NCBI GenBank assembly: GCA_964016885.1
Contig: OZ024743.1
Location: 372,001-436,000 of the forward strand
Source: Eledone cirrhosa
Taxonomy: Eukaryota
Reading direction: 5' to 3'
DNA length: 64,000 nt
Part shown: positions 5,461 to 64,000 of the stretch, one piece after another
Layout of the letters: the number at the start of each line of letters is the position of its first letter
Numbering within the stretch: position 1 is the stretch's first letter
Program-made: the position numbers and the translations under genes
The notes under the pieces: generated by a model
Database searches by the model: none
What the model saw: only the letters and a program-made list of their open reading frames with translations
Told to the model about the DNA's origin: nothing

Positions 5461-5771
5461 ATATTAGTAAAAGGTAAAGAAAATGCTGACAAATTTTTCC
5501 CAGTGAAAAATAGTTTAATTAGGAATAAGTATAAATTAGTAGTAAGTATTGGTTAGTATTCAGTTTTAGTTTTAAGTTTTTACCGGTTGCGCATTTCTAA
5601 TGCTTTTCAAAAATAATTTTGAGATAGAGCGCCCGTGATGTTTGCTCTAATCAGATTAGAGCAAACATCACGAGAGCTCTATCTCAAAATTACTAATTTA
5701 TACTTATTCCTAATTAAACTATTTTTCACTGGGAAAAATTTGTCAGCATTTTCTTTTACTTTTACTAATAT
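5461..5771. repeat. Long inverted repeat centred at 5653; left arm has an extra ~70-bp segment
   Basis: Arms are near-perfect reverse complements (...tttgctctaatc a gattagagcaaa...). Confidence 0.9.
5577..5613 (-). ncRNA. Hammerhead-like motif with U3-A8 core and A13C substitution
   Basis: ttt TTGAAAA gcatt aga aatgc GCAAC CG GTA aaa. Confidence 0.55.
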
Positions 5772-5838
5772 ATATATATATATAAAAGATTGTTTGATGA
5801 TTACTTGTTTCGCTCATTTTTATATATATATATATATA

Positions 5839-5940
5839 CAGGGTGTCCCAAAAATATATACACACTTTGATTACCTGTGCAGGCAATATTTATCAGAATG
5901 CTGTTGAAGTGTTTTTTTTTGTTTTTTTTTTGACATCCTA
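5839..5940. mobile_element. Tc1/mariner-type MITE
   Basis: TIR cagggtgtcccaaaa next to TA; same internal sequence (gaatgctgttgaag) as the copies at 22231 and 46020. Confidence 0.7.
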
Positions 5941-8467
5941 TATATAGTAGTGAAAAACGGGAGATTATATAGAAAAACAAAAGGAATTTATTTATTTTCT
6001 ATTTCATACAGTTAACTAAGTGTAAGTATATTAAGATGCTATTTACGAGTTTATGACGATGAGCTGGCAACTGTTTCAATTTAATGAAAAAAAAAAAAAA
6101 AATGGTGCATGCAGAATACGCTATACATATTGCTTATGGCATGATGAGATAAATTTAATAATAATTAATTTGTATTTGTTTTTGTTATATAATTCTTTTT
6201 TTCTTTGAATTTTTTCAGTCACAAATTAGTAAAACAACAAAGGTTGGCTTAATAGTTTTCACTTTGTAACTTTGTAAATGTATTCAAAATCTATTTATAA
6301 ATCCTGGCAGTATGTATCCGTCCACAAATGTAGCTCTGCCAATAATCTCCCCTTCCTTCGGTAAATTAAATTGTTTAATAACATTACTGATGGACATAGA
6401 TGATGTTATAGATTACGAAAATTGGATTGATACTCCGAGCTGAAATGTAAAATGGATTTTATTCATTCTGATTTCAGAATCTCTCTCTCTCTCTCTCTCT
6501 CTCTCTCTCTCTCTCTCTCTCTCTCTCTCTCTCTCTCTCTCCCCCCCTCTCTCTCTCTCTCTCTCTCTCTCTCTCTCTCTATATATATATATATATATAT
6601 ATATATATATATATAATTTTATATTTTATATATATATATGTATATACATATTATATGTATATATATAATATATGTATATATATTATATGTGTGTGTGCAT
6701 GCATGTATGTATGTACGTGTGTGTGCCTGTGTGTGTGTGCGTGTGCGTGTGTGGTTGCGTATAGGTAATAGATAAATAGTATATCATAATTCGCCTGAAT
6801 ACGGGGTATATGTTCACAAAATTGCTCAATAAAAGCTTAACGGAAAGCTAAATAATTTAGATAATACCTTCTTCTTTTTGACTTTAGTTCCTTTTAGTCC
6901 CTATGAAGCACTGGGTGGCATTCGTCGTCTTTGTATTAATTTTGCTTAATAGAAGTAAGTTTGCAAGCCTAGCCCTCCATCCCCCTCTCAATTCAACGCA
7001 GACTGTTAATTCAATAATGGATATCACGATAATTATTCATCCTTTGGAAATAAAGTGACGACATTTGACTCACAGATATTTCGGCCAAAGTAAGCTGATA
7101 TTATGGATGTATATAAAAAAAAAAAAGCTTAGTTGATCAAAATTTGTTTTTAAAATCTAGACAATGTACATAAGAGTGGATCGGATATTTTAAGCCAACT
7201 AATGAAAGCAATGTGTATATTTCAATCATATGAGATCTCAGTGAGGCATATTCAATTCAAGATTAAAAATAATCATTATATATATAGATATAAGGGACTG
7301 TTATGAATATCAGAAAATAGCCAAGGAGAGTTGTGAATAATAATTACAAAATGGTAAGATTTCAAACTAGATATATTCGAATTTCCATTGTCTATATTGT
7401 CCAATAATTTCAATCAACTTATCTTCTTATCACAATTGCTTACTCTTTTTTTATTAAAAAAACCCTTAGGGCGAGTGTTTGTCTGTTTCGATATCCTCAG
7501 TCGACTGAAGATATACTATATTAGATATGAGGGACTTTATCTGATGTGGGATATTTCTCTTTTCTCTCTGTCATTCACAACTCTCTTTCTCTCCCTCTCC
7601 ATCATCCTATATATATATATATATATATAAATATATATATGTATATACGTGTGTGTGTGTGAATAATATTAAAAGGGCGAAGATAGGCAAATGAACAATT
7701 ACAGACAGTTCCAACTCATCTGTCGACCGCTAGAGATACTTTGTTCCAGTGCTTTAAGATCGATACTATATATATTGCAAGGTAAACAATAGAAAGCATT
7801 AACAACCAGCATCGAGTGCAATTTACAAACATCTTATTTGCTTAACGCTTGTGTGAAATGGAAAACGAAGTGTATTCATGGAAAAAATTAGACTTATATT
7901 TCTGTTACAGAATTTGTAGTGAATACTTTAAGGTAAAGGAACGTTTGTCAAATCCGTGTTGTTTTCTAAGATGCAGCATTGAATTTCCGTGTCTAACTGG
8001 ATTAGAATCGAAACGTGTTTCGAGAGTTAAATATCTTTTGTATGGATTTAGAGTTGTGCTTCAGATGGGATTTAAATGTTCAACTCTATTTAAATAGGTG
8101 AAATGATACCAATAGTAGAAGTAGTTAAACAGAATATTAACAGTATTATAGTGCTTGTTACCCATGCTTTTTAATTTAATATTTTAATATATGAAAGTCA
8201 GTGTATGATCCAAGTTGTAGGCCACAGTTTAATTTTACTTGGGTAGCAGTTAAGTACAAGAATCGTCTCTAGCTAACACTAAATTCATTACACAAGGCGT
8301 TACCTTAGAACGCATTGTTATTACTAATACTCGATACTTAACTGGTATTTTATTCTATCAACTTTGCCTTTCATCCATTTGGATTCGATATAATGCAGTA
8401 CCATTCAAGCCCTAAGGTTTAATTGTCTTTTCCTTTCCTCCTCAAAATATTATTATTATTATTATTA

Positions 8468-8689
8468 TTAGCAGAACCAGTAGAACGTCGGACCAAATGC
8501 TTCGTGATAAAAAGTTATGGCCCTTTACCTTCAGAGTTCAAATATCGCGGGGGTTAGCTTTGCCTTTCATCCTTACGAGTTCGATAAAATAAAGGAGCAG
8601 TAATGCACTGGGGTCGATTTAACCGACTTGCCCATCTCCCCAAATTGCTGGCCTTGCGCCTATAGTAGAAATCATTATTATTATTATTA
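8468..8689 (+). mobile_element. tRNA-derived SINE (Deu/Nin-domain-like)
   Basis: B box gagttcaaat, core ttgcctttcatccttacg, gctggccttg, (att)n tail. Confidence 0.75.
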
Positions 8690-9023
8690 AATCTGGAAGA
8701 ATACAGTCAGGTAAAAGTAATGGAAACAACAAAAATAACGGCGTTGGTAACAGTTACTGTAAGATATTAAACCCGAAGACTCTTATGAACATTTAATTTA
8801 ATGGACGTGGACCACAGACAAAAGGTTAAATCCAGTAAAAGACAAATTAGAGTGAGGGAGAAAGAGCGAGAGAGAGGTGGGGAGAGAAAAGGGTAGATAC
8901 AGGGGGAGGGAGAGAGTAGAAAATACGAAAATCTAAATTATATAAATGCATTAAATACAACTCCCATAGACAGGTGTCCTTTTTTCTGGACGGGAGTAAG
9001 AACCTCGGCATTTAATAAATAGA

Positions 9024-9206
9024 GTTTCTACTTTTGGCACAAGGCCAGCAATTACCCCAGTGCATCACTGGTACTTTATTTTATCGACCCCGTAAGGATG
9101 AAAGACAAAGTTAACCTTGGCGGATTTGAACTCAGAACACAAAGGGCCATAAATCTATGCTGCAAAGCATGGCGTCTGACCCTCTACCGATACTGCGAAA
9201 CCACGA
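9024..9206 (-). mobile_element. tRNA-derived SINE with 15-bp TSD
   Basis: Reverse complement of the family consensus; TSD catttaataaataga at 9009-9023 and 9207-9221. Confidence 0.9.
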
Positions 9207-62105: not shown

Positions 62106-63302
62106 TTCTAAGTGATTGCTTGACCTACTAGAAATACCAACTAAATTGACCTCACATCATTACACATTACATTTTATAAGAAAAGGCGGCATATTGAATA
62201 TACTATATCTGTAAAAGAAGAAAAGGATGACATAGCGACGAGTGGAAAGTGTTTGATCCTAGTTGCGATGTACGAAGGCAACCATGGTTGTACAGCACTG
62301 CATGTTCAGTGTGTTATTAGGACAGGCTGCTAGTATAGCGGGATGGTTAGGCTCGCTTGATATAGCCTCGGGTCGACCCACATTTTGAGTGAAATTGGGT
62401 ACACGACATTTGTGTATTTGTGTATATGACTATGTATGTATGTATGTGTGAGTGCGTGAGTGTGTGTGTGTGTGTATGTTATCATATATGCATGGATGGA
62501 TGTATAAATATATAAAAAAGGCAAACAAATAAACTGAATAGCTGACCCGTGTACAAATATAGCTAATTAGGAAGATAGATAAATACATATAGAAAGAACC
62601 AGAATTGCACAAGTAGTAATCCTATAAAGGAAATATATATATACATACACACATATATATATACCCTTATATATATATACATATATATATATATATATAT
62701 ATATATATATATATATACATACATATATATATATATATATATATATATATATATATATATATATATATATATATATATATATATATATATATATGTGTGT
62801 GTGTGTGTGTGTGTGTGTGTGTATGTATATATAATGTGTGCGTATGTATGTATATATTATGTGCGTGTGTATGTATGTATACATTATGTGCGTGTGTATC
62901 TATGTATATATTATGTTTGAATGTGTGTGTGGATTTATGGATAGATAGATAGGATAAAGAAGATAGAAAAAGAGATAGAAATATTTGGTGGAGGAGCCGA
63001 GATAAGAAAGTGGGGTATGATATTAAAGGGAAAATAGTAGAAAGAGAAAAAGACATGGAGTTACAACAACTGGCATGTGATGGAACCAGTTGAAAAGAAA
63101 ACATTTCAATGCAGAAATAGGGATCATGCTAAGTCGATTAACGCCTACAGTTCTTTACAAAAGGAAGGGAACATTTACATGACCCAGATTTATTTGTTTT
63201 TATAGAGCAATTGTCTATAAAATACAACTGCCCCACGGACAAATTTTCAGATATGTCTGGGATATAACATTTAAATATTTATCTTGTGATTTGACTGGAC
63301 GT

Positions 63303-63492
63303 AATAATAATTGTTTCTACTTTTGGCACAGGGCCAGCAATTACCCCAGTACATTACTGGTACTTTATTTTATCGACCCCGTAAGGATGAAAGGTAAAGT
63401 CAACCTCGGCGGGATTTGAACTCAGATCATAAAGGGAGGTAACTCTATTCTTCAAAGCATGGCATCCGACCCTCTACCGATACTGCCAATCG
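63303..63492 (-). mobile_element. Young tRNA-derived SINE
   Basis: Reverse complement of the family consensus. Confidence 0.9.
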
Positions 63493-63591
63493 AGGATAAC
63501 AATGAAGACGGTGATGATGATGATAATGATAATGATGATGACGGTGGTGATAATAATGATAATGTTGATGACGGTGGTGATGAGAAAGATA

Positions 63592-63775
63592 ATACTGGTT
63601 TCTGATTTAGGCACAAGGCCAACAATTTTGGGAGGGGTGGGGGCGAGAGTCGATTAAATCGACCCTAGTGCATTACTGGTACTTTATTTCATCGACCCCC
63701 GTAAGGATGAAAAGCAAAGCTAACCTCGGTGGGATTTGAAACAGAGCGTAAAGAGATGTAACTCAATGTTGCCGA
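63592..63775 (-). mobile_element. tRNA-derived SINE
   Basis: ggcacaaggcc...aaggatgaaaagcaaagc...ggatttgaa. Confidence 0.85.
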
Positions 63776-63945
63776 ATAATAATAATAATAATAATAATAA
63801 TAATTTCTTTATTGACTCAAGGGCCTACATATAGGGGACAGGGAGCGGAGACAGGTCTGCAGTATCGTGTTTGTTAAAGTGATCGCATCCCATTCTCTCT
63901 CTGTGTATCGCATCCCTCTCTCTCTTTCTGTATATATATATATAT

Positions 63946-64000
63946 ATGAGTCCAGAATTAGCCGTCGAAACGGCTTGAGCTCAGCCGCCGGGGTCCTACT
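63946..64000 (+). mobile_element. Family C copy, cut by the window edge
   Basis: ATGAgtccagaattagccgtcGAAACggcttgagctcagccGCCggggtc. Confidence 0.8.

What the first reader, a model, noticed from the sequence alone, without database searches (positions are those of the whole stretch)
5461..64000. Hidden system: many short non-coding repeat families in (AT)n tracts carry minimal hammerhead ribozymes
Seen: five motifs with an intact core and stem I (10679, 38281, 54552, 56210, 56605), three U3-A8 variants and roughly ten partial or decayed ones. They belong to several families with unrelated flanks. The intact ones are all type I with a very short stem III and a palindromic element in or across loop III (ACTAGT, CTAG, ATATATAT; ACCGGT and TGAGCTCA in the others). 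Established: minimal type I hammerheads with palindromic loop III occur in Penelope pLTRs and non-LTR retrozymes and cleave as dimers. Inference: this is a dense, diversified, microsatellite-targeted population of 140-300 bp non-autonomous ribozyme retroelements mobilised by PLE machinery. I cannot verify whether it has been described in this lineage.
Basis: partly seen in the sequence, partly recalled or inferred. Interest (0 to 1): 0.88.

Follow-up and report, generated by a model that had tools for sequence, protein, structure and literature searches.

The report
Ribozyme-bearing leader copies of Penelope retroelements
The short AT-flanked repeats carry well-formed hammerhead ribozyme motifs (an estimated 200,000 in this genome, cutting untested), but three of the four families traced are the end repeats of protein-coding Penelope-like jumping genes rather than independent elements, and many copies are likely direct copies of the capped start of those genes' messenger RNA, which would help explain how these elements replicate.

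Summary
Observation largely right, interpretation partly wrong. The window has four intact minimal type I hammerheads and one weaker one (0 of 150 shuffles reach that). An unselected 1.17 Mb sample holds 82 (shuffles 0.9), about 2x10^5 genome-wide. The three U3-A8 variants are real families.

Families A, C and D are pLTR/3' ends of autonomous Hydra-clade Penelope-like elements (PLEs). Family A also runs directly into the ORF start. Only family B behaves as a closed non-autonomous unit.

Minimal hammerheads as solo or inverted PLE ends, U3-A8 cores and Hydra (TA)n targeting are published (Cervera 2014; Craig 2021). This scan has noted hammerhead-PLE links before, in other genomes.

Not found in my searches: in three unrelated families the short copies start 29-30 nt after a TATA box. 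In the two families tested they often carry an extra G there, and they end at one of two fixed TA-like sites. They are likely cDNAs of the uncleaved, capped, sense 5' leader, primed internally from nicked (TA)n. That bears on the open question of the PLE template and of how head-to-head pLTRs arise. Cleavage, expression and the octopod host are untested.

The parts
54463..54605 (-). Family A (young subfamily A1): 5' leader/pLTR end of a Hydra-clade PLE, from the inferred start site (with an extra G) to the distal 3' end; complete hammerhead 54604-54552, predicted cut between 54559 and 54558
38227..38417 (+). Family A (older): direct copy 38283-38417 (core at 38286) joined head-to-head to an inverted ribozyme half 38278-38227
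19497..19644 (-). Family A, decayed: 3' part on the - strand plus an inverted ribozyme fragment on +
34942..34984 (+). Family A fragment (right half of ribozyme)
36899..36983 (+). Family A fragment, decayed
10556..11062 (+). Family B closed non-coding unit (about 430-470 bp); hammerhead 10679-10721, predicted cut after 10715
56052..56393 (-). Family B (second subfamily); hammerhead 56253-56211
56555..57347 (-). Family C: 5'-truncated 3'UTR and pLTR of a Hydra-clade PLE; hammerhead core at 56662, predicted cut after 56613
38761..38822 (+). Family C fragment downstream of the cut site
33985..34133 (+). Family D short copy starting at the inferred start site inside stem II (no 5' half of the core); 3' end of a Hydra-clade PLE
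31907..32107 (+). Family D with head-to-head inverted piece
12015..12073 (+). Family D fragment ending at the proximal 3' end
36594..36642 (+). Family D fragment ending at the proximal 3' end
63947..64000 (+). Family D copy cut by the window edge; starts at the inferred start site with an extra G
29980..30127 (+). Family L, U3-A8 hammerhead (core from about 30022, GAAA 30042); starts 30 nt after its parent's TATA box
22410..22642 (+). Family J, U3-A8 hammerhead (core from about 22420, GAAA 22441)
5421..5774 (-). Family E, U3-A8 core with A13 replaced by C (motif about 5614-5577) and inverted piece 5647-5774
11299..11633 (.). Family H, head-to-head 3' parts; the ribozyme seen in longer copies is absent here
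32516..32712 (-). Family I, 3' part with inverted piece; ribozyme absent here, present in longer copies
43218..43263 (+). [quoted passage not shown]
52907..53097 (+). Family R 3' part (long copies carry a hammerhead with a very long stem II insert)
54668..56054 (-). 5'-truncated PLE of another clade (RT thumb + GIY-YIG, 3'UTR, pLTR); not the parent of A, B, C or D

Best explanation
Families A, C and D are the ribozyme-bearing terminal repeats (pLTRs) of protein-coding Hydra-clade Penelope-like retrotransposons, and the short A, D and L copies are likely cDNA copies of the capped, uncleaved 5' leader of the element's mRNA, while family B is a likely non-autonomous unit moved by the same machinery. 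Proposed working: a TATA promoter in the pLTR starts transcription at an A 29-30 nt downstream, at or inside the hammerhead (start site inferred). The protein nicks (TA)n on both strands (inferred from the in vitro work on an anole PLE). Each nick primes reverse transcription internally at one of two TA-like sites, about 17 and about 93-97 nt past the ribozyme cut site (sites shown, priming inferred). Priming in the 3' pLTR gives long or ordinarily truncated copies. Priming in the leader, or on a short transcript from a solo pLTR, runs out at the cap after 60-140 nt and often adds one G opposite it. Two such cDNAs grown from opposite target strands meet at their RNA-5' ends and give the head-to-head copy (inferred). 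The short copies lose the TATA box and would be inert. The ribozymes are predicted to cut poorly alone and better as dimers through palindromic loop III; cutting is not needed to make these insertions.
For: Continuity with Hydra-type ORFs: for A, a 754-aa open frame followed by a 3.1-kb UTR ending in A1, with an inverted copy at the 5' side; 9 of 18 fetched read-through junctions run from the A 3' end into that ORF, ATG 45 nt on. C follows an endonuclease on the same strand with no (TA)8 between in 4 of 24 endonuclease loci, and D in 1; the D UTR is shared with other loci up into the endonuclease. Family F ends the 3'UTR in 16 of the 17 loci visible. Start site: of 30 position-ordered A1 hits, 16 are long with a TATA box and 14 short; the short ones match the parent's upstream sequence for 0 or 1 nt only, the TATA is 29 nt before that A, and all 14 are joined to an inverted copy (at least two rows are arms of one insertion). 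D 5' ends peak at -41 and A at -45 from the cut site, with a TATA-like box 29 nt before the D peak (parent printed). For L, 11 of 27 ends lie at TATA+29/30. Extra G where the leader abuts (TA)n: D G54/T32/A8/C6 in the first 100 of 213 matches, parent T (counted by hand); A1 G20/C3/A2/T0 of 25, parent C (p values). Two 3' ends: A 48 at +11..38 and 56 at +89..97 of 117; D 43 at +16..29 and 63 at +96..106 of 114. 5' ends lie upstream of the cut site, so the templates were uncut, as for the anole PLE in vitro. A homodimer of A folds with an intermolecular helix III.
Against: No RNA data: start site, cap and cleavage are untested. The start-site rule was not seen for B, C, F, H or I. The G patterns exclude joints with no added base, so the share of copies with G is unknown. 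In loci not chosen for it, G preceded the D start in only 9 of 39 cases, which mix long copies and inverted joints. Inverted joints have short microhomologies (a 4-nt palindrome at the A1 start) that could fix the joint without an RNA end. No parent was found for L, E, J, H, I, O, R, or among 25 long copies of the older A subfamily. D's direct link to an endonuclease rests on one locus plus overlapping UTR pieces. Covariation within A was not above control (34 of 500 shuffles). Dimer folds for B and C did not give the hammerhead dimer as lowest energy.
Confidence: 0.7

Rival explanations
1. Same PLE origin, but the short copies are ordinary 5' truncations: the reverse transcriptase stalls at the folded ribozyme, and joints form by microhomology, with G as a generic non-templated addition.
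For: 5' ends fall at or in the ribozyme; joints show short palindromes and microhomologies; truncation and inverted 5' copies are standard for PLEs.
Against: The ends sit at different places in the fold (5' of stem I in A, inside stem II in D, about 40 nt 5' of stem I in L), yet always 29-30 nt after a TATA-like box. A1 is bimodal with nothing between 1 nt and long copies, apart from one copy with a deletion there. G is in excess over C and A in two families with different parental bases.
Confidence: 0.18
2. One reading: independent non-autonomous ribozyme retroelements (retrozymes) of 140-300 bp that self-cleave, perhaps circularise, and borrow PLE proteins.
For: B is a closed unit in partial tandems. 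None of its 55 intact copies has a PLE endonuclease within 3 kb upstream. An 11-copy 310-bp array and a third closed family exist. Animal retrozymes are reported as pLTR derivatives.
Against: A, C, D and F are continuous with ORFs. Short A copies are not tandem or permuted, and short D copies lack half the core. Copy ends do not coincide with the cut site.
Confidence: 0.08
3. Head-to-head copies arise by self-priming on an antisense transcript, as proposed for rotifer PLEs.
For: Palindromes at inverted joints here resemble those that prompted that proposal.
Against: It does not predict ends fixed at sense TATA+29 with an extra G, nor that the two arms end at two different fixed sense-strand sites.
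Confidence: 0.04

Closest known systems
Minimal hammerheads in PLE pLTRs (Cervera & De la Pena 2014, PMC4209133; part 1 of 4 and passages read)
   Same: Minimal type I motifs with palindromic helix III/loop 3; mostly single copies ascribed to truncated PLEs; pairs on opposite strands; U3-A8 core variant; many families per genome.
   Different: Far more numerous here (about 45-101 per Mb; about 2,000 + 1,300 in Schistosoma). Parents are traced, and ends are mapped to a TATA-linked start and two fixed 3' sites. No mention of octopus or molluscs in its main text.
Hydra-clade PLEs (Craig et al. 2021, PMC8557442; section 11 and passages read)
   Same: C-terminal endonuclease, RWK-like, DKT and CxCx5C motifs, CxxC and CxH, hammerheads, insertion into (TA)n, partial tandem and inverted copies.
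   Different: Described from a small number of families, mostly cnidarian, generally under 3 kb. Here there are many families, 47,637 first-look candidates for one RT query and 3'UTRs of 0.3-3 kb. The two 3' ends are about 80 nt apart rather than a 30-40 bp tail.
Anole PLE in vitro (Frangieh et al. 2024, PMC11167929; parts 1-2 of 4 and passages read)
   Same: Internal RT start at two sites downstream of the hammerhead near the ORF start; both target strands cut and extended; AT-rich target; uncut RNA is the template.
   Different: Penelope/Poseidon clade. The text searched does not discuss leader-only copies, TATA or a cap-derived base. Start sites here coincide with TA-like microhomology to the target.
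Animal non-LTR retrozymes (Cervera & de la Pena 2020, PMC7229834, parts 2-3 of 6; Li et al. 2026 bioRxiv 10.64898/2026.07.22.740005, part 1 of 5 and passages)
   Same: Family B and the 310-bp array: 170-450 bp non-coding tandem units with a type I hammerhead. The U.U pair at the base of helix II (families A, B) is known from axolotl HHR_Amex2.
   Different: B occurs mostly as partial tandems and inversions in (TA)n. Circular RNA is not shown. A, C and D are not retrozymes.
Rotifer Penelope pLTRs (Arkhipova et al. 2013, PMC3846280; passages and Discussion read)
   Same: TATA and initiator-like motifs in the pLTR, solo pLTRs, head-to-head inverted pLTRs with palindromic joints.
   Different: That paper favours an antisense template and leaves the question open; the ends here point to a capped sense template.

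Membership tests
Type I hammerhead ribozyme | Core C3 U4 G5 A6 N7 G8 A9 / G12 A13 A14, A15-U16 pair, H17, three helices with helix I open | tested here: met
   Four window copies with at least 5 of 6 stem I pairs, a fifth at 4 of 6; core invariant while N7 and loop II vary across A subfamilies
Type I hammerhead ribozyme | C3-G8 pair or its U3-A8 covariant | tested here: met
   U3-A8 in families L, J, E, long D and the L115 element. Some long D copies have C3 with A8, and E has A13C, so these may be inactive
Type I hammerhead ribozyme | Self-cleavage at N17 | not testable with these tools
   No RNA run listed; needs an in vitro assay
Minimal PLE-type hammerhead | Short helix III with palindromic loop allowing a dimer | tested here: met
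   Self-complementary inserts in most clusters and (CTAG, CGCG, TGCA, CCGG, TATATA, TGCGCA, CCATGG and others); exceptions H, F and L115. Intermolecular helix III predicted for A
Hydra-clade PLE (parent of A) | RWK-like, DKT, CxCx5C linker, CxxC and CxH, RT then C-terminal GIY-YIG-type domain | tested here: met
   RWR 26, PSDKT 102, YRDD 335, CxCx5C 556, YIG 592, CxxC 656, CxH 684 in the 754-aa frame of L336. One close homologue's cluster includes proteins named from a jellyfish
Hydra-clade PLE (parent of A) | Phylogenetic placement with reference Hydra RTs | not tested
   No named reference set was on hand; assignment rests on motifs
Hydra-clade PLE (parent of A) | Insertion into (TA)n and hammerhead in the pLTR | tested here: met
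PLE in general | pLTR present both before the ORF and at the 3' end; partial tandem or inverted 5' copy; optional tail | tested here: met
   A1 at the pLTR-ORF junction and at the 3' end with an inverted 5' copy; two 3' ends
Non-LTR retrozyme (families A, C, D) | Non-coding unit with no protein-coding parent, in tandem repeats | tested here: not met
   Continuous with ORFs
Non-LTR retrozyme (family B) | Closed non-coding tandem unit with a hammerhead in each unit | tested here: met
   Head-to-tail wrap and 429-472 bp spacing; 0 of 55 intact copies with an upstream endonuclease. A parent cannot be excluded from a sample
Non-LTR retrozyme (family B) | Expressed as linear and circular monomer RNA | not testable with these tools
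   Only unlabelled contig runs were available

The most novel reading that the evidence does not exclude
This genome (probably an octopod) has one of the densest hammerhead loads yet seen, about 2x10^5 intact motifs from dozens of mostly Hydra-clade Penelope-like families. It also records an undescribed insertion product: 'strong-stop'-like cDNAs of the capped mRNA leader, running from a TATA-defined start to an internal priming site and joined head-to-head from the two nicked target strands. This would show that PLEs copy capped, uncut sense RNA, explain inverted and solo pLTRs, and give a route by which SINE-like ribozyme repeats, and perhaps retrozymes, are born from pLTRs.
Probability: 0.55. 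Interest if true: 0.72.

Novelty: new member of a known kind. Interest (0 to 1): 0.55.

Why it matters
How PLEs make their inverted and solo pLTRs, and whether they copy a sense or antisense RNA, was left open in print. The in vitro work covers one Poseidon-clade element. Thousands of young, near-identical copies with base-exact ends give a natural record of that reaction, and they name the promoter, the RNA start, the priming sites and an intact partner ORF for a direct test. Practically, about 3.4% of the sampled DNA matches just 16 of these short families; automated annotation would probably file them as unknown repeats or SINEs. The ribozyme set (U3-A8, A13C, U4A, long stem II) is a large natural variant library.

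Tried and rejected
Rfam over the whole window returned only microsatellite-driven miRNA matches in the 150 rows shown of 456; local scans gave one sub-threshold hammerhead hit. The U3-A8 descriptor gave no excess over shuffles. No RNA holder was listed; three unlabelled contig runs laid on family B say nothing on expression, ends or circles. The idea that copies start at the ribozyme cut site was rejected: 5' ends lie 40-70 nt upstream. A circular-template origin for A was rejected once the parent was found. The PLE next to A and B in the window is not their parent: three longer copies of it end in their own pLTR. An apparent extension of A2 in L203 belonged to another repeat. The extra-G test on loci in hand was inconclusive and was redone genome-wide. 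C 5'-end mapping was confounded by its (TA)-like loop III. The 2017 paper on dimer-cleaving PLE-associated hammerheads is not held and is recalled only. Its supplement, the supplements of the 2014 and 2021 papers and that of the 2026 preprint were not seen and may list cephalopod motifs. The two G tallies are hand counts from the printed tables, and the coordinates of the U3-A8 cores are arithmetic; neither was rechecked by script.

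
Full report
Setting. The window is G000:C4:372001-436000 of a 3.0-Gb assembly, 34% GC and crowded with microsatellites. I read it as an octopod cephalopod from recalled SINE sequences and genome shape; no call tested this.

1. The observation. A descriptor for type I hammerheads that allows a mismatch at 10.1-11.1 finds 4 motifs with at least 5 of 6 stem I pairs (C3 at +10685, -54597, -56247, -56662). 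Local dinucleotide shuffles give 0.04, and 0 of 150 reach 4. The 38281 copy appears at 4 of 6. Families A and B have U.U at the base of helix II, as in axolotl HHR_Amex2. In 117 stretches of 10 kb taken at round coordinates, the same descriptor finds 82 motifs in 41 stretches; 11 of them are one tandem array. Twelve shuffles average 0.9, and the reversed sequence gives 0. The bootstrap range is 45-101 per Mb, or about 1.3-3.0x10^5 genome-wide. For comparison, 126,247 motifs were reported for axolotl and over 6,000 for a coral. A looser descriptor groups 261 hits into 24 clusters, some of them singletons that may be chance. The U3-A8 variants do not beat shuffles by descriptor but are conserved families by homology: L, J, E (A13 is C in 11 of 11 matched copies), long D and the element in L115.

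2. What the families are. A genome search with family A gave 1,611 first-look candidates, the best 40 at 99-100% identity, most with an inverted copy of the ribozyme half joined head-to-head and (TA)n on both sides. B gave 3,271 candidates and D 2,678; these are candidate counts, not copy numbers. The PLE fragment at 54668-56054 is a young family with open frames up to 881 aa, but it has its own pLTR. A second PLE type turned up beside one copy, with 47,637 candidates. Its 3'UTR ends in hammerhead family F in 16 of the 17 loci visible. Of 24 further endonuclease loci of this type, four lead on the same strand, with no (TA)8 between, into family C and one into family D; the rest were too short or led to none of the window's families. 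The D UTR is shared with other loci up into the endonuclease, and the window's own C copy aligns for about 780 bp with such a UTR. An exact A1 pattern occurs 1,440 times, with control 0. In L336 a 754-aa open frame is followed by 3.1 kb ending in A1, with an inverted A1 copy at its 5' side. The frame carries RWR, DKT, CxCx5C, CxxC and CxH, the motifs given for the Hydra clade, which is reported to carry hammerheads and insert into (TA)n. Twenty places read through the A 3' end; in 9 of the 18 fetched the sequence continues into that ORF, ATG 45 nt later. Family A is therefore both the 3' end and the 5' leader of the element. B differs: its 3' end wraps to its own start in 429-472 bp partial tandems, and none of 55 intact copies has an endonuclease within 3 kb upstream. 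An 11-copy 310-bp array and a third family look the same. No parent was found for E, H, I, J, L, O or R, nor among 25 long copies of the older A subfamily.

3. How the short copies probably arise. Their 5' ends do not fall at the cut site. They peak 45 nt (A) and 41 nt (D) upstream of it; 21 of 29 A pieces and 29 of 44 D pieces in the unselected sample start between -50 and -31. Among 30 position-ordered A1 hits, 16 are long and 14 share only 0-1 nt with the parent upstream of one A, which lies 29 nt after a TATA box; all 14 are joined to an inverted copy. A TATA-like box lies 29 nt before the D peak, and 11 of 27 L ends lie 29-30 nt after a TATA box. These points fall at different places in the three folds. 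Where the start abuts (TA)n through one extra base, that base is G in 54 of the first 100 listed of 213 D matches (T, the parental base, 32; A 8; C 6) and in 20 of 25 A1 matches (C, parental, 3; A 2) (hand counts; p 1e-10 and 1e-8). An untemplated G opposite a cap is established for reverse transcriptases (own knowledge). The 3' ends are also fixed at two TA-like sites: about +17 (spread to +38 in A) and +93 (A) or +97 (D) (loci not unbiased). The inverted arm usually uses the near site and the direct arm the far one. An anole PLE protein cuts and extends both target strands, starts internally at two sites and uses uncut RNA. Put together: internal priming in the leader copies only start-to-priming-site, and two cDNAs from opposite strands meet at the cap end. 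Shown: the ends, TATA spacing, G excess and parents. Inferred: start site, cap, priming and joining. Against: no such peak for B, C, F, H or I; the G share among all joints is unknown, and one search was inconclusive (9 of 39); microhomologies could fix some joints; there are no RNA data. Short A, D and L copies lack the TATA box, and in D the start lies inside stem II, so the leader cannot fold a ribozyme in cis.

4. The ribozymes. Loop III inserts are self-complementary in most families, and the A homodimer folds with an intermolecular helix III. B and C dimers did not give that fold as the lowest energy. Within A, pairing is 87% against 35-44% for slid controls, but covariation is not above shuffles. 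Cleavage is untested.

5. Comparison with print. Minimal hammerheads as solo remnants of truncated PLEs, opposite-strand pairs and U3-A8 cores are in Cervera 2014. Inverted and partial tandem copies, tails, non-autonomous PLEs and Hydra are in Craig 2021. TATA-like motifs, solo pLTRs and palindromic head-to-head joints are in Arkhipova 2013, which favours an antisense template and calls the matter open. Retrozymes as pLTR derivatives are in a 2026 preprint with no mention of cephalopods in its main text. A 2026 octopus repeat annotation has no occurrence of hammerhead or ribozyme. Searches for hammerhead with octopus or cephalopod listed only Craig 2021 and a twister paper. Searches aimed at TATA, extra or untemplated G and caps with PLE terms listed no paper on leader-only or cap-marked PLE copies; I saw most of these as listings only, and subscription papers and supplements were not searched. 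The scan's index has 401 notes with hammerhead and Penelope in at least 29 other genomes, and none for this genome.

6. Verdict. A real feature of a known kind: hammerhead-bearing pLTRs of Hydra-clade PLEs plus some retrozyme-like units, at unusually high density. The added value is the end-mapping, which makes an open question on PLE replication directly testable. Interest 0.55.

Noticed in passing
window about 54870-54915 (-); L111-L113: The pLTR of the other PLE (GxKF and DKG motifs, 20,482 candidates) has a normal right half of a hammerhead with a palindromic loop but an atypical first half, the same in three longer copies; a possible unrecognised core variant.
   Followed up: partly
L185 (-), L004, L022, L118: An abundant family (31 motif matches in the loci held) carries a hammerhead-like fold with U4 replaced by A in nearly all copies shown; in L185 it follows a Hydra-type endonuclease and UTR.
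   Followed up: partly
window 5614-5577 (-), family E: U3-A8 core with A13 replaced by C in 11 of 11 matched copies of a still abundant family, suggesting spread without an active ribozyme.
   Followed up: partly
window 52907-53097; L103, L125, L137: Family R long copies have a hammerhead with a long stem I and an insert of over 100 nt in stem II; long D also has a long stem II. Standard descriptors miss both.
   Followed up: partly
window 10597-10604; L216, L223: Family B and a second closed family share an octamer motif upstream of the ribozyme; newt satellite 2 is recalled to use an snRNA-type promoter (recall only).
   Followed up: no
L223 (-) 281-3381: Eleven or more head-to-tail 310-bp units, each with an intact hammerhead: a classical retrozyme-like array.
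   Followed up: partly
L306: An A1 pLTR follows the endonuclease of a different Hydra-type family after only about 450 nt; possibly a template-switch chimera or a pLTR swap between families.
   Followed up: no
L342-L358: Several read-through copies stop at various points in the ORF start and are followed by a new leader beginning at or near the inferred start site, as if the enzyme jumped templates after reaching the RNA 5' end.
   Followed up: no
window 288-518, 8471-8673, 9009-9220, 17835-18056, 21599-21827, 36961-37179, 42588-42807, 48810-48902, 63267-63504, 63581-63772: A very abundant repeat of about 200 bp (40-54 hits per 370 kb), recalled as an octopus tRNA-derived SINE; no ribozyme motif seen.
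   Followed up: no
window 1537-3515 and 45426-45906: Near-perfect minisatellites of 38 bp x 52 and 37 bp x 13.
   Followed up: no
window 5841-5946, 22236-22327: Short TA-flanked elements with inverted ends, probably MITEs, without a ribozyme.
   Followed up: no
runs X4, X5 on window 10540-11080: Family B is also held by a second organism (coded B), so it is not confined to this genome.
   Followed up: no
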